This document shows, piece by piece, positions 4,096 to 59,712 of a stretch of DNA of 59,712 bases (positions are counted from its first letter, which is position 1; each line of letters opens with the position of its first letter). The stretch spans positions 20,678 to 80,389 of the forward strand of contig CAVGEG010000002.1 of assembly GCA_963628165.1 (NCBI GenBank), read 5' to 3'. The translations under genes and the position numbers were made by a program. Below the pieces are notes generated by a model. It did not search any database. It was not told the origin of the DNA and saw only the letters and a list, made by a program, of their open reading frames with translations. Origin of the DNA: Paratractidigestivibacter sp. Its GTDB lineage: Bacteria; Planctomycetota; Planctomycetia; Pirellulales; Thermoguttaceae.

Positions 4096-4193
4096 GAGAA
4101 AACCTCCTCTGAGATGCTGATTACCGTTATTGAGAGAGACGCGCCCTTTCATTAAAGTCCAAGCGCGTCGGAGTAAACAAATCGAGAAAAAGA

Positions 4194-12117: not shown

Positions 12118-12193
12118 AATAACGGCAACGTATAATGAATATGCGCTTTCATCGCCTTAAAGCGTGTTTTTCCCCATACAGAGGATAAGACTT

Positions 12194-15100: not shown

Positions 15101-15445
15101 ATTCACGTGCGTCACAACTATCCCGAAAATAGCGTCTTCCCGTTGCGCGACGATCGTTTCACCGACCACTGGTTCATCGTCGATTACGTCGCTCAAAACA
15201 TCCCCAACGCGTGGGGGCTTTACGACATGATCGGAAACGTCGCCGAGTGGACGCGAACCGATTATAAAGCATATCCTTACAACGACGCAGACGGGCGCAA
15301 CTCCTTCGACGCCAAAGAGCGCAAAACCGCTCGCGGAGCGTCGTGGGCCGATCGCCCCAAGATCGCCGGCAGCGCTTTCCGCCAGGCGTATCTCCCGTGG
15401 CAGAAAGTGCATAACGTCGGAATCCGTCTCGTAATCGAAGACTGA
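12194..15445 (+). CDS. Secreted multidomain protein: N-terminal propeller-like region, two CXXCH motifs, C-terminal FGE/SUMF1-type domain
   Basis: The start at MKKLLCAFAICATLLL looks like a signal peptide. CNGCH lies at 13949-13963 and CIGCH at 14102-14116. The C-terminal approximately 300 aa carry FGE-sulfatase family blocks (RVSWNEAQRFVEWL, WGLYDMIGNVAEWT, RGASWADRP). Confidence 0.85.
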   Translation: MKKLLCAFAICATLLLCLETQARQFPGNDNDRPMNTVESVRRAINDMITQFGDEYADGEAYLEELDALEKEEPKDAAWGERFAAFRRKALLALPELDDLELVVVRTNRLPAVGDDFMTIDKVSKGGWNAQLGILSNLRDPEPTFTTIYQPENGRPILEPELNWDGERIMFTSVSEDNKRWAIFEINVDGTGLKTLSPTDQPDVDFFDSCYTPEGKVVACSNAGKQGLPCINGSDPMANIYLIDPETKKVRQLTFEQDSDWHPTPLKNGRIMYLRWEYSDIMHYYSRILFHMNPDGTNQAELYGSGSLFPTAFKHAREFPDSSKIVGIGSGHHGRGDTGRLLIIDPTIARKYPFRYRPTSLEWGPENTQFDAHPDVLPAEQTGFVAEIPGYGRDVVGNVLDMQSTGLKYNFTFPYPLCENYILVNCEIDGAPGTYGLYLVDTFDNMTPISVIKGEGYFFPTPLVERDLPPVLPNRVEEGSKEATVFITDVYNGLGTKDVPRGEIVGLKLFAYHFAYLHTGGHESVGVQSSWDIKRLLGYVPVEEDGSAFFKIPANTPISIQPVDKNGAAIQLFRSWFVGMPGENASCNGCHESQLDATQSVLTMASRREPSEIQDYLGSARPITFELDLYHRVVKKYCIGCHDGSKDDRPSFADAKSAYDNIHPFVRRPGPETDMDVLPPYEYHASTSELLQMLEKGHYGVKIDDEAYRLIVNWIDFNAPWRGKWGNEQESKRRLELSELYADSAAVDVESEYDALLNERRAMPAPEFVQPEKTPERKDDLGSAWAFDEATAKELQKQALDGGAETKTVELTPGVSIEFVRIPAGQFIMGSLDGCWDEYPRAVVTIDKPFWMSKTEVTNAQYEVYDPEHDTRYIEEHGKDHIVPGYIANHPNQPVARVSWNEAQRFVEWLRTEKGVNASLPTEAQWEWAARAGSAEKFYFGPFEADFSKYANLADADRRRLYTTWENGATIHVRHNYPENSVFPLRDDRFTDHWFIVDYVAQNIPNAWGLYDMIGNVAEWTRTDYKAYPYNDADGRNSFDAKERKTARGASWADRPKIAGSAFRQAYLPWQKVHNVGIRLVIED

Positions 15446-21966: not shown

Positions 21967-22200
21967 CGCGCGGGCGCTCTCCGTTTCAGGACGCTTAATA
22001 AAAATTTTTCAATTTGAAAAAAATTTCCAAACGTCGGCCAATCCCTGAGTTACGAATTCGTCGACGGCGGCGGAGGCTTGTAAAAGACCTGAAACGTCCT
22101 ATCTGAAGATTCGCGACGTTGTTTTTAGAGGCAACTCGTTTATAATTTTTCATAAAGAAAAAATCGACGTTAAACCGTTGCAAGAAAAGGATATTTCACG

Positions 22201-22803
22201 ATGTACGAAACGCTCCTTCAAAATCTCCGCGCCAAAGGTTACGGGGCGCAAGTCTTTTCTTCGGAAAAAGAAGTCGTCGATTATCTCGCCGACCAGATTC
22301 AAAACACGACCGTCGCGTTTGGGGGGTCGAAAACGTTGGAGAAGCTCGGGTTATACGAACGTCTTAGCGCCAATAATCAAGTTTCATGGCATTGGCGGAT
22401 CCCCGAAGGTAAGACGGGGGCGCAGGTGTTGAAAGAAGCGCGAGACGCGAGCGTATATCTTTCGTCGGCGAACGCGATCGCGACGACGGGAGAGATCGTC
22501 AATATCGACGGAAACGGAAACCGCGTCGCGGAGATCCTTTACGGTCACGAACGCGTCTACTTTGTCGTCGGCAAGAACAAGATCTCGAAGGATCTCAACG
22601 GGGCGATGTGGCGCGCGAAAAATATCGCCGCTCCCCTCAACGCTCTCCGTCTCCGCTCCGAAACACCATGCGCAAAACATGGCAATAAATGCTATCAATG
22701 TCACTCCCCGCAACGCATCTGCCGCGCTACCGTCATCCTCAACGAACCGCCCCTCAAAGCAAAATACGAAGTCCTGATCGTCGATCTGGTTCTGGGGTAT
22801 TGA
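22201..22803 (+). CDS. LUD domain (lactate utilization protein C / YkgG-like) protein
   Basis: It has the size and blocks typical of the LUD/DUF162 family (VAFGGSKTLEKLGL, SSANAIATTGEIVNIDGNGNR) and a C-terminal Cys cluster. Confidence 0.7.
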   Translation: MYETLLQNLRAKGYGAQVFSSEKEVVDYLADQIQNTTVAFGGSKTLEKLGLYERLSANNQVSWHWRIPEGKTGAQVLKEARDASVYLSSANAIATTGEIVNIDGNGNRVAEILYGHERVYFVVGKNKISKDLNGAMWRAKNIAAPLNALRLRSETPCAKHGNKCYQCHSPQRICRATVILNEPPLKAKYEVLIVDLVLGY

Positions 22804-22830
22804 GTCTATTTCACTAGAGATATTGCTATT

Positions 22831-24966
22831 ATGGATACCAAAAAAGTTTCAATTGTTGAATTACTGTCTTTGAAAAGATTGAATATTCCCGTCTACCAGC
22901 GTAACTATTCATGGGGGGAAAAAGATTGCAAACGTCTTTTCTCTGATATTACATCACTAATAGAAGATACGTCTGTTTTTAATAATGAGAATGATTACTT
23001 CTTAGGATGTATTGTTTCAGTCAAACAAGGTAAGGGCACTCGTTACATTATTGACGGACAGCAACGATTAACGTCAGTCACTTTATTATGTCTAGCCATA
23101 TATCATATAGTTATTCATGGAGATAAACAAGTTGAAGACGAACATTTAGCTAGTAATTTATTCACTAATTATTTAGCCAAAGATCGTTCACTATGTCAAA
23201 ACTATATGAATGAAATCAAACTACACTTAAATCCTGATGACCAAGAAGCCTTAGAGGCATTATTTCTGGATAATGGCAAACAACTTCCACAATCAAGGGT
23301 CACAGCAAACTACAATTATTTTAAAAAGCTAGTACTAAAATCAAACTATAGTATACAGCAGATAATTGATGCGATAGAAAATGTTGTAGTTGTCGACATT
23401 CTCCTCGAACAATATGAAGAGCCTCAACGAGTATTTGAAAGTTTGAATAGTACTGGAGTAGGACTCACTGAATCAGACAAGATTCGCAATTATATTCTCA
23501 TGGATCTTCCTAGTGAAAGCCAAGACGCTCTTTATAAGTCGTACTGGAGGGAAATCGAAACTTGTTGCAATCTCACTAACACAGAAAATGCAATTTCTGA
23601 TTTTTTTTCAACATTCCTCACTCTTAAAAATAATAAACGTCCTACCAAAGACCAAGTATACTTAACCTTTCAAAAATCTTTTAGTAAGAAAGAAGTCCAA
23701 AATGAAACATTTTTACGGGATCTCTTAGCATATGCACGCAGATATTCGTACCTTTTGGCTCCTTTCCATCAATCTCTAGACAGCGTTATCGACAATTGTG
23801 TCTATAGGATAAATTACATTAAGAGAACTATTGTAAGACCTTTTTTCCTTGAAGTTCTAAGATTATACGAAAATCACGAACTTTCTTTAGAAGATACGCG
23901 ACAAGTTTTCCTTCTTACAGAAACATATCTTGTGAGAAAGGCTGTTTGTCATAATGAGACTAATGCTCTCAATAAAGTTTTTACGCAGCTTTACCGAGAG
24001 ATTATAAACATTGACAAAACAGCTAATCAATTTCTTGAAAAAGTCACCAATAACCTTTTATCACGCAAACAAGGCTCAGGAACTGAATTTCCAACAGATA
24101 ATGAGTTCATTCAGGCTTTTTCTCAAAGTCAGACCTTCACTGACTTGAAAAACTATAAAGAATATCTTCTCGAACGCCTCGAATGTTATGACAATCCGGA
24201 ATCTATTGACGTCTACAAGAAACTTAACGATAAAAAGATTTCGGTAGAACACATTATGCCACAAAAGCTTAATGAGGCATGGCGAAATGAGCTAGGTTCC
24301 AACGCCAACAATATATGGAGCAATTGGATCCATCGTATAGCCAACTTAACATTTTCTGCCTACAATAGCAGTATGAGTAACAGTCCGTTTAAAATTAAAA
24401 AAGAAAAGGGCTACTCAGATAGCGGTTTTCATTTAAATAAATACATCGCTAGTTGCAACAAATGGACATTAGAAGAACTAGAAGCAAGAAACAAAATTCT
24501 TACTGAGAGGGCTCTACAAATTTGGAGACGACCTAAGAATTCATATACACCTCCAACTAAATCATATCAGGAATGTACATTAAAAGATGCTCCCTTCTAT
24601 GACATGAAAGGTCTCCATCCTGTTCGATTCAAATATGAAGGAACTGAATACTCTGTTAATAACTGGAAAAAACTTGCCGTAGGAGTAATTCGTCTTCTTT
24701 ATGGTATTAATCCCTCTCTAATTGACCAAATCATGAAAACTTCAGAACCTCGTTTATCCTCTCGTTTTCTGTCTACGAAGGAAAGAAAACCAGGAGTTGA
24801 ACCAGAAGAAATAGCCCCTGACGTATACTTTAACACCTGTAATCCAACAAAGGAAAAAATAATCATTCTAAGCCGTCTCTTCGAATATTATTCAATCGAT
24901 AAAGATAAGCTTATTTTCTCTCTTTCTGAGAGAAAACCTCGTCAAAAGAGCAAAAAGCTGTTTTAA
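22831..24966 (+). CDS. DUF262 + DUF1524 (GmrSD-like) nuclease, probably a modification-dependent type IV restriction or defence protein
   Basis: The N-terminus carries the DGQQR motif (YIIDGQQRLTS). The C-terminus has a His-Me finger-like block (ISVEHIMPQ...WIHRIANLTFSAYNSSMSN). The gene is strongly AT-rich compared with its flanks. Confidence 0.85.
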   Translation: MDTKKVSIVELLSLKRLNIPVYQRNYSWGEKDCKRLFSDITSLIEDTSVFNNENDYFLGCIVSVKQGKGTRYIIDGQQRLTSVTLLCLAIYHIVIHGDKQVEDEHLASNLFTNYLAKDRSLCQNYMNEIKLHLNPDDQEALEALFLDNGKQLPQSRVTANYNYFKKLVLKSNYSIQQIIDAIENVVVVDILLEQYEEPQRVFESLNSTGVGLTESDKIRNYILMDLPSESQDALYKSYWREIETCCNLTNTENAISDFFSTFLTLKNNKRPTKDQVYLTFQKSFSKKEVQNETFLRDLLAYARRYSYLLAPFHQSLDSVIDNCVYRINYIKRTIVRPFFLEVLRLYENHELSLEDTRQVFLLTETYLVRKAVCHNETNALNKVFTQLYREIINIDKTANQFLEKVTNNLLSRKQGSGTEFPTDNEFIQAFSQSQTFTDLKNYKEYLLERLECYDNPESIDVYKKLNDKKISVEHIMPQKLNEAWRNELGSNANNIWSNWIHRIANLTFSAYNSSMSNSPFKIKKEKGYSDSGFHLNKYIASCNKWTLEELEARNKILTERALQIWRRPKNSYTPPTKSYQECTLKDAPFYDMKGLHPVRFKYEGTEYSVNNWKKLAVGVIRLLYGINPSLIDQIMKTSEPRLSSRFLSTKERKPGVEPEEIAPDVYFNTCNPTKEKIIILSRLFEYYSIDKDKLIFSLSERKPRQKSKKLF

Positions 24967-25049
24967 ATTCCAATAATCGTTCAATTTATACTAAGTTCAT
25001 ATAGTTGCTGGGCATAAAATACAAGAACTAGCAGACTAAGCCAAACGAA

Positions 25050-25080
25050 AAAGGGCTCCCAAGCGGAGCCCTTTGTTTAT
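25050..25080. terminator. Bidirectional terminator between the convergent GmrSD-like and moxR genes
   Basis: The stem agggctcc (25052-25059) pairs with ggagccct (25065-25072). An A-run lies on the left and a T-rich run on the right. Confidence 0.6.
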
Positions 25081-25084
25081 TTGG

Positions 25085-26164
25085 TCATTTTACAAACTTT
25101 TCGATCTTTGGTTCGGGGACGGTCTCGAGAAGTTTGAGGACGATTTTATCTGAGTTCATCCCTTCGGCTTGCGCTTGGAAGTTGGCGCCGACGCGCTTTC
25201 TCAAGACGGGGACGGCGGCGGCTTTGATATCGTCGACGGAGACGGCGAAACGTCCGTCCATCGCGGCGAACGCCTTGCCCGCGTTGATGAGGAATTGGCC
25301 CGCGCGCGGTCCTGCGCCAAAGTCGACGAGATCACGGACAAAGTCGGGCGCGGAATCGCCGTCTGGACGCGTCGCTCTCACTAGACGCGTCGCGTATTGG
25401 ATCACGTATTGACTTGCCGCTACGCTCTGCACAAGACGCTGCATTCCCAATAGAATTCTTGCGTTAAGAAGCTTTTTAGGAACCGCGACCTCCCCGCGCG
25501 TCGTCGCCGTCAGAATCCGTTCTTCTTCCTCCAACGTCGGATAGTCGATCTTGACGTTGAGCATGAAACGGTCGAGCTGCGCTTCCGGCAACGGATACGT
25601 TCCCTCTTGATCGATCGGGTTTTGCGTTGCGATCACGAGGAAAGGATCGGGGAGTTTGTACGTGGTTCCGCCGACGGTGATTTCGCGTTCTTGCATCGCT
25701 TGAAGGAGCGCGGACTGCGTCTTGGGCGGGGTGCGGTTGATTTCGTCCGCAAGGAGGATATTCGTGAAGACGGGCCCTTCCACAAAGCGGAAACTTCTCT
25801 TACCCTGCGCGTCTTCCTCAAGGATATTCGTGCCCGTGATATCCGAAGGCGTAAGATCCGGAGTGAACTGGATGCGGCGGAAATTGACGTCGAGAATCTT
25901 CGCGATCGTCGAGACGGCGAGGGTCTTCGCGAGCCCCGGCACGCCTTCTAGAAGACAGTGCCCGCGCGTAAAGATCGCCGCGAAGATCTGACGAATCGCG
26001 TCTTTCTGACCGACGACGACTTTGGCGAGTTCGTTCTCCAAAGCTACGCGAGTCTGCCCGAATTCCTGCAACAACGCGCCGAGGTTCTGACGCTGATTCT
26101 GGGCCGTAAGCTTGGCGACGCCCGCCTCCCCCTGACGCTGTTCCTCCGATCGTTCCGTCGTCAT
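25085..26164 (-). CDS. MoxR-like AAA+ ATPase
   Basis: Walker A (LLEGVPGLAKT), Walker B (ILLADEINR) and ATQNPIDQEGTYPLPEAQLDRF are present. The start could be 26164 or 26170. Confidence 0.9.
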   Translation of the reverse strand: MTTERSEEQRQGEAGVAKLTAQNQRQNLGALLQEFGQTRVALENELAKVVVGQKDAIRQIFAAIFTRGHCLLEGVPGLAKTLAVSTIAKILDVNFRRIQFTPDLTPSDITGTNILEEDAQGKRSFRFVEGPVFTNILLADEINRTPPKTQSALLQAMQEREITVGGTTYKLPDPFLVIATQNPIDQEGTYPLPEAQLDRFMLNVKIDYPTLEEEERILTATTRGEVAVPKKLLNARILLGMQRLVQSVAASQYVIQYATRLVRATRPDGDSAPDFVRDLVDFGAGPRAGQFLINAGKAFAAMDGRFAVSVDDIKAAAVPVLRKRVGANFQAQAEGMNSDKIVLKLLETVPEPKIEKFVK

Positions 26165-51094: not shown

Positions 51095-52078
51095 ATGTCT
51101 TACGCAAGAAATAAGGGTTTTACCCTAGTCGAGTTACTCGTTGTCATCGCCATTATCGGTATTCTTATCGGACTGCTCCTTCCCGCAGTTCAAGCGGCGC
51201 GCGAGGCGGCGCGACGCATGCAGTGTACCAATAATCTCAAGCAAATGGGATTAGCGATCCACAACTTCCACGACGTCAACGGCGGCCTTCCTCCAAGCGC
51301 TATCGGGTGGCATCGCATCACCTTCTGGGCGTTCCTCTATCCCTTCTCCGAACAGCAGAACCTCTGGGAAATTGTCGGTCCAAGCGCATCGCATGACCCC
51401 GTTACGCTCGGGCGTTACTTCTGGAACACCGGCGGCGGCTGGGCCGGCGTCACCCTTAACGACGAACAGAAGAAGGGGTTCGCCTCCGTACCGTACATGA
51501 CCTGCCCGTCGCGTCGCTCCGGCCCCGCGCATAAGGAATGGGACGCCGATACCGGCGGCGCGGCTACGCCTGGTCCTCAGACCGACTACGCCGTCATCAT
51601 GGCGCACGAAAAGGGCGATTCCGGCGACGCGCACTATCACGTCCGCGCTTGCGTAACTCGCCCCTCCGACTGGTCCCGCGTCAACGCCGATCAGAAGGGT
51701 CCTTTCCGCGGCGCGCGCCTCAAGGAAGCTGAAAACTTCAAAAGCGGTATAAAATACTCCGACACTCTCTCCCGCTTCACCGACGGCACGAGCAATCAGT
51801 TCTTCATCGGCGAAAAGCACATCCCGATTGGTAAACTCGGACAATGCAACTCTCAGGCCCCGAGCACGGACAACTACTCCTGGTGTTACGACTGCTCGTA
51901 CCTGAGCACGATCGAAGCGTCCGACGAAGGCTCGATCTACAAGTGCCTCCAAACCGGTTGGTCCTACAACAGCGACGGTTCGCGCAACGCTCCGACGTCC
52001 CTCCTTGCCAGCGGTATCCTCGGTCAGTATGACGGAATCGGCAACGTCGCGACGATCAACTCCACGATCGGAAGCTAG
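51095..52078 (+). CDS. DUF1559 protein with a type IV pilin-like N-terminus, ended early by an in-frame TAG
   Basis: The N-terminus reads [45 protein letters not shown]. The ORF stops at TAG 52076-52078, just before the family's conserved C-terminal block. Confidence 0.85.
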
Positions 52079-52204
52079 CGCTCCGGCGGTTCGAATATAC
52101 TCATGGGAGACGGCGCCGTCCGCTTCTTCAGCGCTGCCGCCGCGCAGAAGGTTCTCGGGCGCTACGCCAATATCAGCGGCGGACTCACGCTCAATCAAAA
52201 CTGA
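52079..52204 (+). pseudogene. Orphaned in-frame C-terminal segment of the DUF1559 gene
   Basis: The same frame continues after the TAG as [41 protein letters not shown], ending at TGA 52202-52204. It aligns with [17 protein letters not shown] in the paralog at 42208. Confidence 0.75.
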
Positions 52205-52845
52205 AATCCAACCAACCTTTCGCGCAATAAGTCCGCTCCTCTCCCCCGCCCTCTCTCTCCTTCTCTCCTACCCTTCGCCCACGCATATGAAGACGGCCCG
52301 CGCGCTTCTTCTACGCGACGCGAGTCGCGTTGCGACGCCCTTCTTTCCGTCTCGCGCGTCGCGACTCGTCGCAATCCTACCACGCTTCTCTCTTTCCGAT
52401 CCCGAACGCGCCCAGACGCCGCGCAGTTCCCCCTCGGCGCGTCATGCAAATTCCACGGCGTTCGCCTCCCTTTTCCATCCAACGTCTCTTTGAAAAGCGC
52501 TCGTGCTTATTGCGTCTCCCTTCTTTTTTCTTATAATTTATCTACTATTCAAAACGCGGAACGACCCTCTTTTCACGCCAACCAAGGGCTTTCGAAAGAG
52601 GTTAGCCGAGAAATTTTTCGCTAAACCGTATGAAAGAAGGCGCCCTTTCTATATTCCAAGAGAGAGTCGCGCGCCTTTTTTCTCGGAATAATTCCGCATT
52701 TTGACAAGGAAACGTCTCCCCTACCTTTGGCAAATTACGGCGAAGAACAATCTACTCGGCACAATAATTCCGAGGACGTTGACAAATTTTTTTAAAGGGA
52801 CGCTCGGAAAGCGCGGTGAGCGAAAAAGGACGACGGAACGCGACA

Positions 52846-52961
52846 AGAAATAAAGAAGACCTCCGAAGAGGTCTTCCTTCACACACGCTGTATGACCGAT
52901 TGCTCGGGCTTTGAAACTCAATAATGAGTTTTTTATTTGAACTCAGTAGTGTAATCTCAAC
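52846..52961 (-). ncRNA. tracrRNA: Predicted tracrRNA of the type II-A system
   Basis: The minus strand reads GGUUGAGAUUACACUACUGAGUUCAAAU, which pairs with the first ~23 nt of the CRISPR repeat as 7 bp, a 3-nt bulge, then 16 bp (G:U pairs included). An AACUCA-UUAU-UGAGUU hairpin (52915-52930) follows, then the terminator GAAGACCUC-UUCG-GAGGUCUUC (52855-52876) with UUUAUUU. Confidence 0.75.
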
Positions 52962-52965
52962 CTTC

Positions 52966-52993
52966 ATTTTAATCAAGAAAGAAAGTGTGTCAA
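52966..52993 (-). promoter_or_regulatory. Sigma70-like promoter driving the tracrRNA
   Basis: On the minus strand, TTGACA (52993-52988) is followed by a 16-nt spacer and TAAAAT (52971-52966). The -35 box lies immediately upstream of the cas9 ATG (52995). The predicted TSS is about 52959-52962, at the start of the anti-repeat. Confidence 0.6.
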
Positions 52994-52994
52994 T

Positions 52995-55900
52995 ATGGAA
53001 GATTCAAATAACTATTATCTCGGTCTCGATATCGGAACGGACTCGATCGGCTACGCGGTCGCGAATAAGAACTACGAACTCCTGAAATTCAAAGGGGAGC
53101 CGATGTGGGGCGCGACCCTCTTTGAATCCGCCAAGAACGCGAGCGAACGCCGTCCCTTCCGCACGGGTCGCCGCCGACTCGACCGTCGACAGGCGCGCGT
53201 GAGTCTCCTCAACGAACTATTCGCCAAGGAGATCTGCAAGATCGATCCGAAATTCTTCATTCGCCGTCGCGAAAGCGCGCTCTACGCGGAGGACGCACGT
53301 GACGGGGTCAAGATCTTCGCCGGTCAGGGGATCAACGATATTGAATATTACAAGCAATTTCCGACGATTCACCACTTGATCTTCCGTCTGATGAAGAACC
53401 GCGACGCGCACGACGTTCGTCTCGTCTATCTCGCGTGCGCGTGGCTCGTCGCCCACCGCGGTCACTTCCTCATCGATATCGAGCCAGAGAAAGCCCTCGA
53501 CGTTCTCGACTTCCAGAGCGCCTTTGTCGACTTGAATCAATGTCTCGAGAGTAACGGGTACGCGCTCCCTTGGGTCGACGGACTCAAAGCCGAGACGTTA
53601 AAGGAAATTCTTCAAAAACGAAGTCGACTAACGGAAAAAAAGGGTGAAATTACCAAAGTACTCAAAAAAGACGCGAAAGGAGAACCCGACGACGACGAAA
53701 ACGCGACCCGTTCCTTCAAGGCCAGTATCTTCTCGGATCTCCTAGCGGGGAAGAAGATCAGCGCGGAGGCTCTCTTCGAGAATCAGGAGTACGCCGACGT
53801 CGAAACTTTTAGCGTCAAGCAAGGGGACGACGAACTCGCGCCGATCCTCTCCGTTCTTGGCGACGACGCGGAAATTCTCCTGAAAATACGCGCCCTCACG
53901 GACTGCGCGAGTCTCGTCGCCGTCATGAACGGCGCGGAAAGCATCTCCGACGCCAAGATCAAGGTCTACGATCAGCACAAGAAGGATCTTAGCTACCTCA
54001 AACATTTTGTCCAAAAATACCTTCCCGATAGTTACGACGACCTCTTCAAGAACGCCGAAAAAGACAACTACGTCGCCTACAGCAAGAATATCAAACGCGT
54101 CAAAGGGGGCGTCGGCGAGAAATTCGCCTTTGTCAACCAAGAGATTTTCAGCGACAACCTTCGTAAGATTCTTAAAAACACAGAAGAAAAAGTCGCCGAG
54201 GAAGATCGGCAGGCGTTCCGCGAGATGTATGACCGTCTAGAAAAGTACGACTTCCTCCCGAAGCAGAAGAACGGGGACAATCGCCTGATTCCGTACCAGC
54301 TCTACTACGTCGAACTCGCGAAGATCCTCGAGAACGCGGCAAAATATCTCCCCTTCCTCAACGCGGCGGACGACGACGGGATCACGACGAAACAGAAGAT
54401 CCTCGATACCTTTACGTTCCGCGTTCCCTACTTCGTCGGGCCCCTCAAGGAAGAGGGGGACGACAAATCGAAAAACGCATGGCTTGTGCGCAAGGGAAAA
54501 GGGCGCATTCTCCCCTGGAACTTCGATAAGCTTGTCGACAAAGACGCCTGCGAAAAAGAGTTTATTAACCGAATGACGAATAGCTGCACGTACCTACCGG
54601 GGGAAAAAGTCTTACCGGAGAATTCCCTCCTCTATAGCGAATTCAAGGTTCTCAACGAGTTGAATAATCTCAAAGTGGACGGGCTCTCAATTCCAGTCGA
54701 CGTCAAAACATGCCTCTATGAAGAGCTCTTCATGAAAAAGCGACGCGTCACTGTGGCGGCAATCAAAAAGTACTTGACGGCGCGTTGCCTACTCAAAGAA
54801 GGGAACGAACTCTCGGGGATCGACGACACGATCAAATCCTCCCTCAAATCATATCACGACTTTAAGAAGCTCTTGGACGCGAAGGTTCTCACGGAGACGG
54901 AAGTCGAGGAAATTATCGAACACGCCGCGTATACGGAAGATAAAAGGCGAATGCGCCAATGGCTGAAGCACAAATATGAACAACTTTCGGAGGAAGACGT
55001 CAGATATATTGCGCGACTCGACCTCAAGGGCTTCGGACGCCTGTCGCGACAGTTCCTCAACGGGATCGTGGGGAAACTTCAAAAAACGGACGACGCCGAA
55101 TACACGATTATCGAGTGGATGCGCAAGACGAACATGAATCTCATGCAACTCCTTTCGGATGACTTCAACTTTGCGAAGAAGATCGAGGAGTTCCGTAGGA
55201 AATTCTACGAAGGAAAGGCGCGAACGCTCGAGGAAGAGCTTGACGACGCGTACGTCTCTAACGCAGTAAAGCGCCAGATTTACCGTACCATGGCGGTCGT
55301 CGACGAAGTCAAAAAGGCGATGAAGAGAGACCCCGAGAAGATCTTCGTGGAGATGGCGCGCGGGGGAACCCCCGATCAGAAGGGCAAGAGGACGACGAGT
55401 CGACTCGAGCAGCTCAAAGAACTGTATAAAAAGATCAAGACGGAGGACGCTCGAGAGCTCCAAGAAGAGCTGAATTCTATGCTTAGCGGAAAAGACGAGG
55501 GGCGACTTCAACAAAAGAGGCTCTACCTCTACTATTTGCAGGAGGGGAAATGCGCCTACACGGGGGATTCGATCGACCTTAAATACTTGTCGGGCGATCG
55601 CTACGATATCGACCATATCTACCCGCAGCGCTTAGTAAAGGACGACAGTCTCCTGAACAACATGGTTCTCGTCAAGAGCGAAGAAAACGGCCGTAAAAGT
55701 GACAAGTATCCGATTCCCCCGGACGTCCGAAGTAAAATGAAGGAGTTCTGGAAGCATTTGCGCGAGGTCGGGCTCATGACGGATGAAAAGTATCGCCGTC
55801 TGACGCGCACGAATGAATTCACGGAAGACGAAAAAATGGGCTTCATAAACCGTCAGCTGGTGGAGACGCGACAATCGACGAAGGTCGTCGCGAACTTGCT

Positions 55901-57104
55901 CAAAAAGCGGTTTCCGAATTCGGAGATCGTTTACGTCAAAGCGGGGCTTGTCTCGGAATTCCGTCAAGAGTTCGACCTTCCGAAGTCGCGATTAATCAAC
56001 GACCTGCACCATGCGAAGGACGCGTACCTGAACGTCGTCGTCGGCAACGTTTACGACATGCGCTTCTCAAAGAAGTTCTTCTCCCTTGAGAAAGATAAGG
56101 AGTACAACGTGCAGGTGGGCAAGCTCTTCAAGAAGGATCATTATTACCAAGGCGAATGTTACTGGGAGCGCGATCGCGGCTTTTCCCTCGTGCGGAAAAC
56201 GATGGAGAAGAACGCCGTTCATCTGACGAAGTTTACCTACCGTCGTAAAGGCGGCTTCTTTGACCAGAACCCTCTGAGGAAAAAAGCGGGGCTCGTTCCG
56301 CGAAAGAAAGATTTACCGACAGAAAAGTACGGCGGATACAATAAGGCGGCGGCGTCTTTCTATGTTCTTGCGCGCTATACGATTGGCCAAACATGCGACG
56401 TGATCTTTGCCCCGATCGAACTTCTTGACTTGCAAAAGTACCACGGAAGTGCAGAAGACACGAAAGAATGCGTCGAGGAATCGATCCGCGAAATAATCGG
56501 TAAAGAGCCTCAAGACGTCGAGCTTATGTTGAATGGGCGAATCCTAAAGATTCGAACGCTCATTTCTCTCGACGGAACGCTCATGACGCTTAACGGAAAA
56601 CAAAATGGCGGTAGGCAAATAATTCTTTCTCCTCTATTGTCCCTTTGCCTAGGAAAAGACGAAGAATACGTCCAAAAGCTTGAATCGTTCATGAAAAAGC
56701 TAGAAAGCAATAAGAATCTCCTCCCTAGCAAAGAACACGACAAGATTTCTAAAGAGAAAAATCTTCTTCTCTTCGATCGTCTAGTGAATAAATTGAAGAG
56801 TTGGCCGTTCATTAATATCCCCAACAACCCCCTCGCTGAGTTACAGAAAGAATCAGCCCGAAAGAAATTTGAATCAGCGGATGAACTCGTACAAATAAAA
56901 ATATTAGTGAATCTGATCCAATACATAGGAGGTAAAAAACAGTCCTGCAACTTTACGGACATTGGCGGTAAAAAAACAGTGGGATCTATATCAATGAGTA
57001 GCAAACTATCCAACTGGAAGGGAAAATATAAGGAAGTGCGCATTGTCGACAGATCGTGCGCTGGGTTATTCGAATCACAAAGTAAAAATATATTGGAGTG
57101 GTAA
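52995..57104 (+). CDS. cas9: Cas9, type II-A (1369 aa)
   Basis: RuvC-I is YYLGLDIGTDSIGYAV (D12). The Arg-rich bridge helix is RRPFRTGRRRLDRRQARVSLL. HNH is YDIDHIYPQ (D873/H874) plus NNMVLV. RuvC-III is NDLHHAKDAYLN. The size is similar to SpCas9. Confidence 0.95.
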   Translation: MEDSNNYYLGLDIGTDSIGYAVANKNYELLKFKGEPMWGATLFESAKNASERRPFRTGRRRLDRRQARVSLLNELFAKEICKIDPKFFIRRRESALYAEDARDGVKIFAGQGINDIEYYKQFPTIHHLIFRLMKNRDAHDVRLVYLACAWLVAHRGHFLIDIEPEKALDVLDFQSAFVDLNQCLESNGYALPWVDGLKAETLKEILQKRSRLTEKKGEITKVLKKDAKGEPDDDENATRSFKASIFSDLLAGKKISAEALFENQEYADVETFSVKQGDDELAPILSVLGDDAEILLKIRALTDCASLVAVMNGAESISDAKIKVYDQHKKDLSYLKHFVQKYLPDSYDDLFKNAEKDNYVAYSKNIKRVKGGVGEKFAFVNQEIFSDNLRKILKNTEEKVAEEDRQAFREMYDRLEKYDFLPKQKNGDNRLIPYQLYYVELAKILENAAKYLPFLNAADDDGITTKQKILDTFTFRVPYFVGPLKEEGDDKSKNAWLVRKGKGRILPWNFDKLVDKDACEKEFINRMTNSCTYLPGEKVLPENSLLYSEFKVLNELNNLKVDGLSIPVDVKTCLYEELFMKKRRVTVAAIKKYLTARCLLKEGNELSGIDDTIKSSLKSYHDFKKLLDAKVLTETEVEEIIEHAAYTEDKRRMRQWLKHKYEQLSEEDVRYIARLDLKGFGRLSRQFLNGIVGKLQKTDDAEYTIIEWMRKTNMNLMQLLSDDFNFAKKIEEFRRKFYEGKARTLEEELDDAYVSNAVKRQIYRTMAVVDEVKKAMKRDPEKIFVEMARGGTPDQKGKRTTSRLEQLKELYKKIKTEDARELQEELNSMLSGKDEGRLQQKRLYLYYLQEGKCAYTGDSIDLKYLSGDRYDIDHIYPQRLVKDDSLLNNMVLVKSEENGRKSDKYPIPPDVRSKMKEFWKHLREVGLMTDEKYRRLTRTNEFTEDEKMGFINRQLVETRQSTKVVANLLKKRFPNSEIVYVKAGLVSEFRQEFDLPKSRLINDLHHAKDAYLNVVVGNVYDMRFSKKFFSLEKDKEYNVQVGKLFKKDHYYQGECYWERDRGFSLVRKTMEKNAVHLTKFTYRRKGGFFDQNPLRKKAGLVPRKKDLPTEKYGGYNKAAASFYVLARYTIGQTCDVIFAPIELLDLQKYHGSAEDTKECVEESIREIIGKEPQDVELMLNGRILKIRTLISLDGTLMTLNGKQNGGRQIILSPLLSLCLGKDEEYVQKLESFMKKLESNKNLLPSKEHDKISKEKNLLLFDRLVNKLKSWPFINIPNNPLAELQKESARKKFESADELVQIKILVNLIQYIGGKKQSCNFTDIGGKKTVGSISMSSKLSNWKGKYKEVRIVDRSCAGLFESQSKNILEW

Positions 57105-57976
57105 TGGCGTGGAGAATTGTTGTGGTCTCCGAACGGAGCAAACTCGATTTCAAAATGAACTACATGGTGGTGCGAGGAACTGAGACGACTCGCCTTTTTA
57201 TCGACGAGATCGCCATTTTGATCATCGAAAATCAAAACGTCTCGTTAACGGCATACCTTCTCGCGGCGTTGACTGAACGCAACGTGAAGATCCTCTTCTG
57301 CAACGGCAAGCACGCCCCGGAAATGGAACTCGCGCCCCTCTACGGCGGTTACAACACGTCGCAGAGATTGCGAGAGCAAATCGCGTGGCGCGCGGAAACG
57401 AAAGCGGGAGTGTGGCGCGCGATCGTCGGCGAGAAGATTCGCAATCAGAGCAAACTTTTGCGCGAAATCGGACGCGCGGCGGAAGCGGATCATCTCCTTG
57501 GGTATATCGACGAACTGAAAGGAGACGACGATTCGAATCGCGAAGGGCACGCCGCGAAGGTCTACTTCAACGCCCTTTTTGGCAAGGGGTTCACGCGTAG
57601 CGCGAAGATTCCGCTCAACGGCATGCTTAACTACGGTTACTCGATTCTTCTGGGCGCGGTCAGTCGCGAAATCGTCGCCAGCGGGTACGTCACGCAGCTG
57701 GGGATCCACCACCGCAACGATTCCAATCGCCATAATTTCACCTGCGATCTCATGGAGCCGATGCGTCCCTTAATCGACCGCGTCGTGAAGGATCTCCCAG
57801 CGCGCGATCTCGACCCCGAGCTCAAACAGACAATCGTCCAACTTGCAAATCTCAACGTTCGGATCAACAACGAGGAGCAAACCTTCTTGAACGCGATTCG
57901 CATTTACGTTCGGAGCGTCTTTGACGCGCTCAATCACGACGATCCCAAGTTAATCAAATTCAGCGAAAATGAGTAA
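57104..57976 (+). CDS. cas1: Cas1 integrase, type II
   Basis: It has MAWRIVVVSERSKLDFKMNYMVV, NGMLNYGYSIL and LGIHHRN...NFTCDLMEPMRPLID. Its ATG overlaps the cas9 stop (TAATG). Confidence 0.93.
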   Translation: MAWRIVVVSERSKLDFKMNYMVVRGTETTRLFIDEIAILIIENQNVSLTAYLLAALTERNVKILFCNGKHAPEMELAPLYGGYNTSQRLREQIAWRAETKAGVWRAIVGEKIRNQSKLLREIGRAAEADHLLGYIDELKGDDDSNREGHAAKVYFNALFGKGFTRSAKIPLNGMLNYGYSILLGAVSREIVASGYVTQLGIHHRNDSNRHNFTCDLMEPMRPLIDRVVKDLPARDLDPELKQTIVQLANLNVRINNEEQTFLNAIRIYVRSVFDALNHDDPKLIKFSENE

Positions 57977-58289
57977 TAGATTTATGAGAACGATCGTATT
58001 TTTCGACCTGCCGATCAAGAATCCGACGGAGAAGCGAGAGTATCGCCGATTTCGGAAAGTTCTGATTAAGAACGGATTCGTGATGGTGCAAAAATCGGTC
58101 TATAGCAAATTGGTTCTGAACGCGACGGCGCAGAAATCCCTTGCGAACACGCTCCGCAATGAAGTTCCCGCCGTAGGAACCGTTCAGATGCTCACGATCA
58201 CCGAAAAACAATACGCGGGGATCGCCTTCATCGCCGGCTCGGGGACGAGCGACGTCGTCGATTCCATGGAAAGGGTTATTTTCTTATGA
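57969..58289 (+). CDS. cas2: Cas2
   Basis: It has MRTIVFFDLP...EYRRFRKVLIKNGFVMVQKSVYSKLVLN and overlaps the end of cas1 by 8 nt. An alternative ATG lies at 57984. Confidence 0.9.
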   Translation: MSNRFMRTIVFFDLPIKNPTEKREYRRFRKVLIKNGFVMVQKSVYSKLVLNATAQKSLANTLRNEVPAVGTVQMLTITEKQYAGIAFIAGSGTSDVVDSMERVIFL

Positions 58290-58951
58290 TTTTATGTCAT
58301 CCAGAAATTGAACGCGTCTTCGATTTTTCGGGGAAGAAGATTCCGTCTTTAGTCGTCGAAAGGCCCGCGCTTTTTCGCAAGCTCGTTCTCGACATTTACG
58401 AACAGTGCGACGGAGGCGAGGGAGAGTTCGTCCTTTCCCGAGACGACGTCGTTCAGAGCATGCTTTCGAACGTCGAGTTTATCGACAATTGCGTTCATTA
58501 CGACTTCTCCCCCAAGGCGTTAACGACGCGCATCCTGAAGTCTCTTGAACGCGAGGCGATGAACGAAGTCTTTCATCTCAAGACAGTCGAGCTGTTGCAA
58601 AAGATTCAAGAGTACCTCAACGAGTTGAGCTTTTCGTTCAACACGACCCTTGAATTCACGCGATGCTCGCTTCCGGGACTTCTCAAGTGCGCGGGGGTGA
58701 CGATCCGCGACGACTACGAAGATCCCCTTGAAAGGCTCTTCGACTACATGGAGCTTGTTCGAGAATTCGAGAAAGATCGTATCTTCATCCTTCTAAACCT
58801 GCGGAGTTATTACGCCGACGCGGACGTCGAAGCCTTCTTAGGAGCGCTCGTCGACCATGAGTATCAGGCGTTCCTTCTCGACAATGTCGATCGCCAAAAA
58901 TTACCGTACGAAGAGCGAACGACTATTGACGACGACCTCTGCGAAGTTTAA
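58286..58951 (+). CDS. csn2: Csn2 (type II-A signature protein)
   Basis: It is 221 aa and its start overlaps the cas2 stop in ATGA. It is collinear with canonical Csn2 (SLVVERPALFRKLVLDIYEQ, IFILLNLRSYYADADVEAFL, AFLLDNVD, TIDDDL). Confidence 0.82.
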   Translation: MILCHPEIERVFDFSGKKIPSLVVERPALFRKLVLDIYEQCDGGEGEFVLSRDDVVQSMLSNVEFIDNCVHYDFSPKALTTRILKSLEREAMNEVFHLKTVELLQKIQEYLNELSFSFNTTLEFTRCSLPGLLKCAGVTIRDDYEDPLERLFDYMELVREFEKDRIFILLNLRSYYADADVEAFLGALVDHEYQAFLLDNVDRQKLPYEERTTIDDDLCEV

Positions 58952-59062
58952 AATACAGGTATGAATAGTAGCAAACCTCAGATCCCGATCCTTTCCACGA
59001 AGCTAGTAACTTCGCGCGTTCGTTTTGACGTCCGCACGGGCTCGATTTGGGATTTGAGGGTT
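58952..59062 (+). promoter_or_regulatory. CRISPR leader
   Basis: This 111-nt non-coding segment lies between csn2 and the first repeat. It ends in GATTTGG GATTTGAGGGTT. Confidence 0.7.
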
Positions 59063-59712
59063 GTTTGAGAGTAGTGTAATTTCAGAGTAGTCCAATACCA
59101 ACGCGACTTAATTAGAATTCTTGACGACTTGTTTGAGAGTAGTGTAATTTCAGAGTAGTCCAATACTATACGTTTTAGCGACGCCCTAGGGTCGTCGGTT
59201 TGAGAGTAGTGTAATTTCAGAGTAGTCCAATACCTGGAGCGGCAAAGACGCCGACGGGAATCTGTTTGAGAGTAGTGTAATTTCAGAGTAGTCCAATACC
59301 CGCGTATGTTTGAGGACTAACGCAGGCTAGTTTGAGAGTAGTGTAATTTCAGAGTAGTCCAATACCGCGCGCCTTCTTGGAATCTTGCAACGTCAGTTTG
59401 AGAGTAGTGTAATTTCAGAGTAGTCCAATACAGATATATAGTAGCTACTCGCGATAACTGGGTTTGAGAGTAGTGTAATTTCAGAGTAGTCCAATACTCT
59501 GGCGCTTGCGTCGCCATCCAGCAGTACGTTTGAGAGTAGTGTAATTTCAGAGTAGTCCAATACTACGTGGCGGCGGTTCCGCCTTGCGAGTCGGTTTGAG
59601 AGTAGTGTAATTTCAGAGTAGTCCAATACAAAACTTCAGCCCCTTCTACCTGCAAGCACGTTTGAGAGTAGTGTAATTTCAGAGTAGTCCAATACTACGT
59701 GGCGGCGGTTCC
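59063..59712 (+). CRISPR. CRISPR array: at least 10 identical 36-bp repeats, 9 complete spacers and a truncated tenth; it continues past the window
   Basis: The repeat GTTTGAGAGTAGTGTAATTTCAGAGTAGTCCAATAC starts at 59063, 59131, 59198, 59264, 59330, 59396, 59462, 59528, 59594 and 59660. Spacer lengths are 32, 31, then 30 x7. Confidence 0.98.

What the first reader, a model, noticed from the sequence alone, without database searches (positions are those of the whole stretch)
52846..59712. Complete, compact type II-A CRISPR-Cas9 locus in a PVC-like genome
Every part of a working II-A system is visible in order: a minus-strand tracrRNA, then cas9 (1369 aa), cas1, cas2, csn2, a leader and an array of identical repeats. 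In cas9 the RuvC-I Asp, the HNH Asp-His and the RuvC-III His-His-x-x-Asp are all intact. The four cas genes are joined by overlapping start/stop codons (TAATG, an 8-nt overlap, ATGA), which suggests a single translationally coupled operon. Csn2-bearing II-A systems are best known from Firmicutes. Here the neighbours are DUF1559 pseudopilin-like genes, which are typical of Planctomycetes, Lentisphaerae and Verrucomicrobia. The locus therefore looks like either horizontal acquisition or an under-sampled Cas9 lineage. Because the guide RNA parts can be read directly from the sequence, this ortholog is immediately testable.
Basis: partly seen in the sequence, partly recalled or inferred. Interest (0 to 1): 0.8.

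Follow-up and report, generated by a model that had tools for sequence, protein, structure and literature searches.

The report
Ordinary type II-A CRISPR-Cas9, planctomycete host
This is a genuine, apparently intact Cas9 immune locus of the familiar type II-A kind. It sits in a planctomycete (Thermoguttaceae-like) genome that long ago took it from gut Clostridia, so it is a new member of a well-known system rather than a new kind of system.

Summary
The window carries, in order, a minus-strand tracrRNA, cas9 (1369 aa), cas1, cas2, csn2, a 111-nt leader and 10 identical 36-nt repeats. All catalytic residues are intact and the genes are tightly packed.

The host is a planctomycete. PurA is 97-98% identical to 'Planctomycetia bacterium' and 83% to Thermoguttaceae. 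Nine related contigs from other samples, up to 258 kb long, carry the locus at the same chromosomal site.

In a Cas9 tree the planctomycete clade is monophyletic and nested among gut and rumen Clostridia (at most 53% identity). Repeat, tracrRNA and leader motif are of the clostridial type. Codon usage matches the host. Together this points to an old cross-phylum transfer followed by vertical inheritance, not contamination or a recent island.

The exact Cas9 protein is already in NCBI. The closest characterised ortholog is FrCas9.

Three caveats apply. The PAM is unknown, because no protospacer was found. A 4-nt insertion separates the conserved ATTTGAG leader motif from the first repeat; this is seen only in the window, out of 37 leader-repeat junctions read. 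The array is cut by the window end.

Two extras emerged. Cas9, especially the REC lobe, evolves about six times faster than cas1/cas2/csn2. A conserved structured RNA candidate of about 156 nt lies upstream of the tracrRNA.

Interest is modest.

The parts
52846..52960 (-). tracrRNA gene, about 115 nt. The anti-repeat is at 52935-52960. It is followed by a first hairpin (AACUCAUUAUUGAGUU), two short conserved stem-loops (CCGA-GCAA-UCGG and CAUACA-GCG-UGUGUG) and a terminator hairpin at 52879-52852 with UUUAUUU.
   Evidence: Co-folding with the repeat gives 23 bp with a 3-nt bulge. Outside the array, the only match to the repeat complement in the window is at 52944-52960. The terminator was found. 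The gene is almost invariant in the orthologous loci, while the DNA beyond its 3' end diverges. The 38-locus alignment shows compensatory changes in 7 of 10 consensus pairs. The ends are inferred, not mapped.
52966..52993 (-). Sigma-70-like promoter of the tracrRNA: TTGACA-N16-TAAAAT. It abuts the cas9 start codon.
   Evidence: 11 of 12 consensus positions. The -35 hexamer is invariant in the orthologs.
52995..57104 (+). cas9, 1369 aa, full-size II-A type. The RuvC and HNH catalytic residues are intact.
57104..57976 (+). cas1, type II. The ATG overlaps the cas9 stop (TAATG). A GTG at 57098 is also in frame.
57969..58289 (+). cas2, 106 aa (or 101 aa from an alternative start at 57984).
58286..58951 (+). 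csn2, short form of 221 aa. This is the signature gene of subtype II-A.
   Evidence: (TIGR01866 equivalog, full length).
58952..59062 (+). CRISPR leader. A promoter-like TTGACG-N17-TAAAAT at 58926-58954 straddles the csn2 stop. The conserved leader-end motif GGGATTTGAG is at 59049-59058. It is followed by an extra GGTT (59059-59062) before repeat 1.
   Evidence: The ATTTGAG motif is described in PMC5382924 and PMC4330368.
59063..59712 (+). CRISPR array: 10 identical 36-nt repeats, 9 complete spacers and a 17-nt fragment of a tenth that equals the start of spacer 8. The array is cut by the window end.
52509..52704 (+). Possibly associated, not established. A promoter-like TTGCGT-N16-TATAAT (52509-52536) is followed by a conserved element of about 156 nt (52549-52704) that folds into a closed four-helix structure.
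   Evidence: It was found in all nine other planctomycete loci that include this region, and in no clostridial locus.

Best explanation
This is a canonical, probably functional type II-A CRISPR-Cas9 system, resident in the chromosome of a Thermoguttaceae-like planctomycete.

Inferred mechanism, by homology with the S. pyogenes, S. thermophilus and F. rodentium systems:
- The array is transcribed from the leader in the cas direction.
- The divergently transcribed tracrRNA pairs with the first 23 nt of each repeat.
- Host RNase III and trimming yield crRNAs of about 20 nt of spacer plus about 20 nt of repeat.
- Cas9, loaded with the crRNA:tracrRNA pair, cuts DNA next to a PAM that is still unknown.
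- Cas1-Cas2-Csn2, together with Cas9, insert new spacers at the leader end.

Inferred history: the whole unit (cas genes, repeat, tracrRNA, leader motif) came from gut or rumen Clostridia (Oscillospirales-like). It entered an ancestor of this planctomycete lineage once and long ago. It has since been inherited vertically at one site, downstream of a DUF1559 gene, with Cas9 diverging faster than the adaptation genes.
For: Identity of the parts:
- Profile matches far above the curated cut-offs for all four Cas proteins.
- Intact catalytic residues.
- tracrRNA with promoter, anti-repeat and terminator. It belongs to a tracrRNA family found about 60 nt upstream of cas9 in 38 related loci, with covarying stems.
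- Group-1 II-A leader motif.

Host:
- PurA is 97-98% identical to a 'Planctomycetia bacterium' MAG and 83% to Thermoguttaceae.
- The window has three DUF1559 genes and one DUF1598 gene.

Resident, not contaminant:
- The same gene order, DUF1559 / H+-PPase / 145 aa / 213 aa / DUF1559 / cas9-cas1-cas2-csn2 / array, appears in L001, L002 and L051-L055, from different samples and on contigs up to 258 kb.
- Flanking proteins are 81-94% identical.
- cas GC3 is 0.64-0.70 against a host value of 0.685 +/- 0.039. RSCU correlation is 0.85-0.88, within the host range of 0.62-0.95.
- As a control, the GmrSD island in the same window stands out clearly: GC3 0.29, r = -0.32.

Clostridial origin:
- In the NJ tree, window + L001 + L002 form one clade, sister to an Oscillospiraceae Cas9 and nested among about 30 Bacillota MAG Cas9s.
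- The 5' 18-20 nt of the repeat and the ATTTGAG|GTTT junction are shared with those loci.
Against: - Function is not shown. No transcript data exist, and no protospacer was found for any of 9 spacers: INPHARED, IMG/VR (7 spacers tried), PLSDB and the window itself all gave nothing. The PAM is therefore unknown.
- The leader-anchoring motif is displaced from repeat 1 by 4 nt. This occurs only in the window and could impair polarised spacer uptake.
- Cas9 dN/dS against the nearest relative is 0.57, and 0.89 in REC. This could reflect relaxed constraint rather than an arms race.
- The tree is a midpoint-rooted NJ tree without SpCas9-type outgroups.
- The donor group is named only from MAG labels.
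Confidence: 0.88

Rival explanations
1. The cas locus is Firmicute DNA that was mis-assembled or mis-binned into a planctomycete contig (contamination or a chimera).
For: Cas9, Csn2, the repeat and the tracrRNA are all of a type otherwise seen in Clostridia MAGs. Locus GC is 0.50 against 0.57 for the rest of the window.
Against: The same junction between planctomycete genes and cas9 occurs in seven other contigs that span it, from other samples. The best Firmicute Cas9 is only 53% identical. GC3 and codon usage equal the host's. The lower GC comes from the Lys-rich protein composition (11.4% K).
Confidence: 0.01
2. The locus is a recent horizontal acquisition: a mobile defence island that arrived in this strain or species.
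For: Type II systems are known to move as whole units between phyla (PMC4607530). Another clearly foreign defence gene, GmrSD, lies in the same window.
Against: Codon usage is fully ameliorated. The site is fixed across relatives whose flanking genes have dS of 0.25-0.9. cas dS is of the same order as flank dS. No integrase, transposase or tRNA was noticed next to the locus, though the flanks were only surveyed by ORF and Pfam.
Confidence: 0.04
3. The locus is present but decaying. Adaptation is impaired by the displaced leader motif, and/or Cas9 is drifting under relaxed selection.
For: - The 4-nt insertion at the leader-repeat junction is unique among the 37 junctions read. The 10 nt next to repeat 1 are essential for adaptation in S. 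thermophilus (PMC4330368, as summarised in PMC5382924).
- Cas9 dN/dS is 0.57 against 0.07-0.11 for cas1/cas2/csn2.
- A spacer is duplicated.
- Relatives show decay elsewhere: there is a frameshift in L045 cas9 and a cas1-csn2 deletion in L047/L048.
- The neighbouring DUF1559 gene has an in-frame stop.
Against: - cas9 keeps a 1369-codon open frame with no indel against an 88%-identical ortholog, despite about 7% nucleotide divergence.
- All catalytic residues are intact.
- All 10 repeats are identical.
- The tracrRNA and its promoter are conserved.
- The insertion could be an assembly or consensus error.
Confidence: 0.12
4. This is an ancient, native PVC Cas9 lineage, with no transfer from Firmicutes. 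Clostridia might even be the recipients.
For: The planctomycete clade is deep: it is 47-53% identical to every labelled outgroup. The tree is unrooted in effect.
Against: Only one narrow lineage, with PurA at least 97% identical among carriers seen, holds it. The clostridial radiation with the same repeat, tracrRNA and leader type is broad and diverse. In the NJ tree the clade is nested, not basal.
Confidence: 0.05

Closest known systems
Faecalibaculum rodentium FrCas9 type II-A system (PDB 9JWK/9JWN; PMC8931148, PMC12926199)
   Same: It is the best solved-structure match over the full length: 710 bits, residues 5-1367. The locus has the same layout, with cas9-cas1-cas2-csn2, the array in the same direction and an upstream tracrRNA on the opposite strand (PMC8931148). 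Protein size is the same class, 1372 against 1369 aa.
   Different: It is only a distant homolog. It scores about 0.5 bit per residue, against about 1.1 for 50%-identical relatives, so my estimate is roughly one-third identity. The PI domain aligns weakly (51 bits over 310 residues), so FrCas9's NNTA/NRTA PAM cannot be transferred. The host phylum differs.
Streptococcus pyogenes SpCas9 type II-A
   Same: Same domain order and catalytic motifs. It scores 493 bits over residues 6-1027. The 36-nt repeat, roughly 30-nt spacers, a bulged repeat:anti-repeat duplex and a short Csn2 are also shared.
   Different: The PI domain is not alignable beyond about 75 residues. The repeat, tracrRNA and leader end belong to a different family: ATTTGAG-type rather than the CTRCGAG/ACGAG type (PMC5382924).
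Cas9 of Thermoguttaceae and Planctomycetaceae MAGs in NCBI (e.g. MGN0930855.1 on JBJEXI010000045; SFIW01000051)
   Same: These are orthologs at the same chromosomal site, 68-73% identical, with the same tracrRNA and leader. The exact window protein is itself in NCBI on an 80,389-bp contig.
   Different: Species-level divergence. The L002 ortholog has a PI domain only 44-45% identical, with synonymous sites saturated, which suggests PI replacement. The window alone has the GGTT insertion at the leader end.
Group 1 type II-A leader-repeat junction (S. thermophilus CRISPR1 type, ATTTGAG/GTTT; Wei 2015, Van Orden 2017)
   Same: The leader ends in GGGATTTGAG and the repeat starts with GTTTGAG.
   Different: In the window the two are separated by 4 nt. 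In 35 related loci they abut, and L017 has ATTTGGA instead.

Membership tests
Type II CRISPR-Cas (Cas9 systems) | A single large effector with RuvC-I/II/III, HNH, a bridge helix, a REC lobe and a PI domain | tested here: met
   Pfam finds Cas9_REC, Cas9_PI, Cas9_RuvC, HNH_4 and Cas9-BH. TIGR01865 scores 852 bits. The catalytic D12, E786, D873/H874, N898, H1006 and D1009 are present.
Type II CRISPR-Cas (Cas9 systems) | A tracrRNA with an anti-repeat complementary to the CRISPR repeat | tested here: met
   A 23-bp duplex with a bulge. It is the unique match outside the array. It has its own promoter and terminator and is conserved with covariation in 38 loci. Expression was not tested.
Subtype II-A | csn2 as the fourth gene, after cas9-cas1-cas2 | tested here: met
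   TIGR01866 equivalog, 143 bits, full length 2-221. Gene order.
Subtype II-A | Type II-specific Cas1 together with Cas2 | tested here: met
   TIGR03639 at 283 bits and TIGR01573 at 71 bits.
Subtype II-A | An array of 36-nt repeats with roughly 30-nt spacers, downstream of csn2 and in the cas orientation | tested here: met
   Ten identical 36-nt repeats; spacers of 30-32 nt.
Group 1 II-A leader (Van Orden 2017) | ATTTGAG directly abutting the first repeat (GAG/GTTT junction) | tested here: not met
   The motif is present but displaced by GGTT at 59059-59062. The junction is canonical in L045, L056, L002, L047-L050 and the clostridial loci.
Functional Cas9 immunity | Spacers that match mobile elements flanked by a consistent PAM | tested here: inconclusive
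   No protospacer was found in INPHARED, IMG/VR, PLSDB or the held sequences. The phages of this host are probably unsampled.
Functional Cas9 immunity | crRNA maturation by host RNase III; DNA cleavage activity | not testable with these tools
   This needs RNA sequencing and biochemistry.

The most novel reading that the evidence does not exclude
The conserved element of about 156 nt upstream of the tracrRNA (52549-52704, + strand) may be a new non-coding RNA component of this II-A locus. It could be, for example, a structured 5' leader or small RNA that controls cas9 operon expression. It is preceded by an invariant TATAAT, folds into a closed four-helix structure, and occurs in every planctomycete copy of the locus examined but in none of the clostridial ones. 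A transcript starting there would also run antisense through the tracrRNA gene. The evidence equally allows a host RNA or regulatory region that merely neighbours the insertion site.
Probability: 0.15. Interest if true: 0.55.

Novelty: new member of a known kind. Interest (0 to 1): 0.3.

Why it matters
It documents a clean case of a complete Cas9 unit (genes, repeat, tracrRNA and leader signal) crossing from Bacillota into Planctomycetota and then settling as a stable chromosomal locus. No paper in the searched library mentions Cas9 in Thermoguttaceae.

It also offers a Cas9 ortholog that is only about one-third identical to any characterised enzyme. The guide RNAs are fully predictable, the PAM is unknown, and natural variants differ mainly in the REC and PI domains.

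None of this changes how type II-A systems are understood. Its value is as a catalogue entry and a possible tool candidate.

Tried and rejected
1. Rfam found nothing in the whole window at gathering thresholds. A permissive scan of 52000-53100 gave only chance hairpin hits. The tracrRNA is therefore not recognised by Rfam's models.

2. Protospacer and PAM search. All of the following gave nothing:
   - the repeat and the 3' 23-25 nt of spacers 1-6 and 8 against IMG/VR, using all 8 scans;
   - 27 concatenated spacers against INPHARED;
   - 19 spacers against PLSDB;
   - 585 spacers from all held arrays against all held DNA.

3. PAM by homology to FrCas9. The PI domain is too divergent to map N1137, Y1198, R1213, T1214 and Q1334 reliably.

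4. Csn2 against PDB sequences gave no hit at E <= 0.001. Only the profile identifies it.

5. An ungapped search for the full anti-repeat misses it because of the bulge. A 17-mer with 3 mismatches finds it.

6. Duplex energy alone does not single out the anti-repeat, because it is AU-rich and GC-rich chance sites score as well.

7. Fetching the NCBI 80-kb parent contig to see the rest of the array. Only a 2.2-kb Logan contig was retrievable.

8. The 62-aa ORF at 52503-52691 as an explanation for the conserved upstream block. Rejected, because the reading frame is not conserved between loci and one locus has a stop.

Full report
**1. What is in the sequence.**

- cas9 lies at 52995-57104 and encodes 1369 aa. 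Pfam finds Cas9_REC, Cas9_PI, Cas9_RuvC, HNH_4 and Cas9-BH. NCBIfam TIGR01865 scores 852 bits against a cut-off of 100.
- cas1 lies at 57104-57976 and matches the type II-specific model TIGR03639 at 283 bits.
- cas2 lies at 57969-58289.
- csn2 lies at 58286-58951 and matches TIGR01866 over its full length at 143 bits.
- The junctions read TAATG, an 8-nt overlap and ATGA. The 8-nt overlap assumes the upstream cas2 start; gene callers on sister contigs pick a start five codons later.
- The catalytic residues D12, E786, D873-H874, N898, H1005-H1006 and D1009 are present and almost invariant across 35 relatives.
- After a 111-nt leader come ten identical 36-nt repeats (GTTTGAGAGTAGTGTAATTTCAGAGTAGTCCAATAC). 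The spacers are 32, 31 and then 30 nt.
- The window ends 17 nt into a tenth spacer whose sequence equals the start of spacer 8. The array is therefore incomplete here and contains a duplicated spacer.

**2. The tracrRNA.**

On the minus strand, immediately upstream of the cas9 ATG, there is a TTGACA-N16-TAAAAT promoter at 52993-52966, matching 11 of 12 consensus positions. About 90 nt downstream of its inferred start there is a 12-bp GC-rich hairpin followed by UUUAUUU, at 52879-52846.
- The RNA between them starts with an anti-repeat. It pairs with repeat positions 1-23 as 7 bp, a 3-nt bulge and then 16 bp.
- Outside the array this is the only match in the window to the repeat complement, where 0.03 matches are expected by chance.
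- Rfam does not recognise it.
- The same RNA is found in the same place, about 60 nt upstream of cas9 on the opposite strand, in 38 related loci. The alignment shows a nearly invariant anti-repeat and two short stems, in which 7 of 10 consensus pairs carry compensatory changes. Every copy also has a terminator hairpin.
- In the planctomycete copies the first hairpin after the duplex is 10 nt longer (AACUCAUUAUUGAGUU).
- The RNA ends are inferred, not mapped.

**3. Whose genome is it.**

The window encodes LigA, PurA, ArgH, FabH and Tex. It also has three DUF1559/N-methyl pseudopilin-like proteins, a DUF1598 protein and an H+-pyrophosphatase.
- PurA is 97-98% identical to a protein named 'Planctomycetia bacterium' and 83% identical to several 'Thermoguttaceae bacterium' proteins.
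- Thermoguttaceae belongs to Pirellulales, Planctomycetota, in the PVC group.
- Proteins identical to the window's PurA, Csn2, Cas1 and Cas9 are recorded on one NCBI contig of 80,389 bp. The sequence is therefore already public.

**4. Resident locus, not contamination.**

A scan of species-representative genomes found the closest Cas9 genes in a Planctomycetaceae MAG (73% identity) and a Thermoguttaceae MAG (68%). All other hits were Bacillota MAGs at 53% or less.
- Both planctomycete contigs carry the locus at the same site. So do five more contigs retrieved from other samples, up to 258 kb long.
- The shared order is DUF1559, H+-PPase (minus strand), a 145-aa gene, a 213-aa gene, DUF1559, then tracrRNA-cas9-cas1-cas2-csn2-array.
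- Flanking proteins are 81-94% identical to the window's.
- The cas genes have lower GC (0.49-0.54 against 0.574). Their third-position GC (0.64-0.70) equals the host mean (0.685 +/- 0.039). Their codon-usage correlation with host genes (0.85-0.88) lies inside the host range (0.62-0.95). The GC deficit comes from the lysine-rich proteins.
- The same test flags a truly foreign gene in this window, GmrSD at 22831-24966: GC 0.35, GC3 0.29, r = -0.32.

**5. Where the locus came from.**

In a neighbour-joining tree of 35 full-length Cas9 proteins, the window, L001 and L002 form one clade. That clade is sister to an Oscillospiraceae sequence and nested among Clostridia, Lachnospiraceae, Selenomonas and Acidaminococcus MAGs. 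Many of these are from rumen and gut samples by their record titles.
- These loci share the first 18-20 nt of the repeat (GTTTGAGAGTAGTGTAAT), the tracrRNA family and the leader end ATTTGAG|GTTT.
- ATTTGAG|GTTT is the Group 1 II-A motif of Van Orden et al. and Wei et al. (PMC5382924, PMC4330368).
- Carriers among planctomycetes, as far as seen, form one narrow lineage.
- The simplest reading is a single, old transfer of the whole unit from gut Clostridia, followed by vertical descent. Whole-unit transfer of type II systems between phyla has been proposed before (PMC4607530).
- Limits: the tree is distance-based and midpoint-rooted, and the donor is named only from MAG labels.

**6. How it relates to characterised Cas9s.**

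The best solved-structure match is F. rodentium FrCas9 (9JWK), at 710 bits over the full length. SpCas9 scores 493 bits and aligns only to residue 1027.
- The PI domain aligns weakly even to FrCas9 (51 bits). FrCas9's PAM contacts therefore cannot be mapped with confidence.
- No protospacer was found for any spacer in INPHARED, IMG/VR, PLSDB or the sequences held.
- The PAM is thus unknown, which tempers the 'immediately testable' claim.

**7. What is not canonical.**
- Leader-repeat junction. In 35 related loci, including the two nearest relatives with the same repeat (L045 and L056), the leader motif abuts the first repeat. L017 has ATTTGGA instead. In the window, four extra bases (GGTT, 59059-59062) intervene. 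A metagenome scan that allowed 0-6 intervening bases found only gap-0 junctions. Leader-proximal bases are needed for polarised spacer integration in II-A systems (PMC4330368, PMC5382924). If the insertion is real and not an assembly error, it may weaken adaptation. Interference would be unaffected.
- Uneven evolution across the locus. Against the nearest intact relative (L056), Cas9 is 88% identical with no gaps and dS is about 0.1 throughout. Cas9 has dN/dS 0.57: REC 0.89, PI 0.54, nuclease core 0.35, N-terminus 0.17. cas1, cas2 and csn2 have 0.07-0.11. At greater distances cas9 stays at 0.24-0.27, against 0.09-0.17 for flanking genes. One ortholog (L002) has a PI domain only 44-45% identical, with synonymous sites saturated, which suggests PI replacement.
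- Reading of the fast Cas9 evolution. The frame stays open without indels. I therefore read it as diversifying pressure on the effector rather than decay, but relaxed constraint is not excluded.

**8. A by-product: an upstream conserved element.**

The intergenic DNA between the DUF1559 gene and the tracrRNA diverges freely, except for a block at about 52490-52765 that is conserved in all ten planctomycete loci.
- The block contains an invariant TATAAT with TTGCGT 16 nt upstream.
- It also contains a stretch of about 156 nt (52549-52704, + strand) whose minimum-energy fold is a closed four-helix structure. The energy is -57.6 kcal/mol, with z = -5.7 on the + strand and -3.3 on the minus strand.
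- The alignment consensus gives the same structure. 91% of cells are paired, against 39-54% when partners are slid. Five pairs carry double changes, but only five distinct sequences are available.
- It is not a conserved ORF and has no Rfam match.
- It is absent from the clostridial loci and from the rest of the window.
- Whether it belongs to the CRISPR locus or to the host site could not be decided.

**9. Verdict.**

The object is a standard II-A system. Its orthologs, and the protein itself, are already deposited and machine-annotated. I therefore rate it a new member of a known kind, of modest interest.

Noticed in passing
window 52490-52765 (+), core 52549-52704: A conserved intergenic block upstream of the tracrRNA. 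It has TTGCGT-N16-TATAAT followed by an element of about 156 nt that folds into a closed four-helix structure (z = -5.7). It is present in all ten planctomycete copies of the locus and absent from the clostridial loci. It has no Rfam match and is not a conserved ORF. It is a candidate small RNA or cas9 5' leader.
   Followed up: partly
window 59059-59062: A 4-nt insertion (GGTT) lies between the conserved leader-end motif ATTTGAG and the first repeat. It is seen in none of the other 36 related loci examined. It could be a real mutation that displaces the leader-anchoring sequence, or an assembly error.
   Followed up: partly
window 59564-59593 and 59696-59712: Spacer 8 and the truncated last spacer begin with the same 17 nt. 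This is a duplicated spacer, or a duplicated two-unit block, at the point where the window ends. It may be why the assembly stops here.
   Followed up: no
window 52995-57104 compared with L056 629-4738: Cas9 evolves much faster than the adaptation genes at the same synonymous distance. dN/dS is 0.57 overall (REC lobe 0.89), against 0.07-0.11 for cas1, cas2 and csn2. The PI domain of ortholog L002 is only 44-45% identical.
   Followed up: partly
window 22831-24966 (+), low-GC stretch about 22000-26000: A GmrSD-type (type IV restriction) gene with GC 0.35, GC3 0.29 and codon usage anticorrelated with the host. It is a recently acquired defence gene about 28 kb from the CRISPR locus.
   Followed up: partly
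window 51095-52201 (+): The DUF1559 gene next to the locus has an in-frame stop (Trp328 to stop, ORF ending at 52078). Its orthologs run to 369 aa. This is either a nonsense mutation or a sequencing error.
   Followed up: partly
L047 about 10540-11036 and L048 about 2636-3132: In a more distant lineage (Cas9 about 50% identical, near-identical repeat and leader end), cas1 is fused to the last 65 codons of csn2. This is an internal deletion that removes most of cas1, all of cas2 and most of csn2, while cas9 and the array remain.
   Followed up: no
L045 769-1344: The closest relative's cas9 on this low-coverage contig carries a 1-nt indel, so the gene call starts late (1177 aa). The same allele is intact on another contig (L056).
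   Followed up: partly
window 12164-15445 (+): A 1093-aa protein that combines a hydrazine-synthase-alpha middle domain with an FGE-sulfatase domain. There are also large ORFs with no Pfam match, for example 106-4152 on the minus strand (1348 aa).
   Followed up: no
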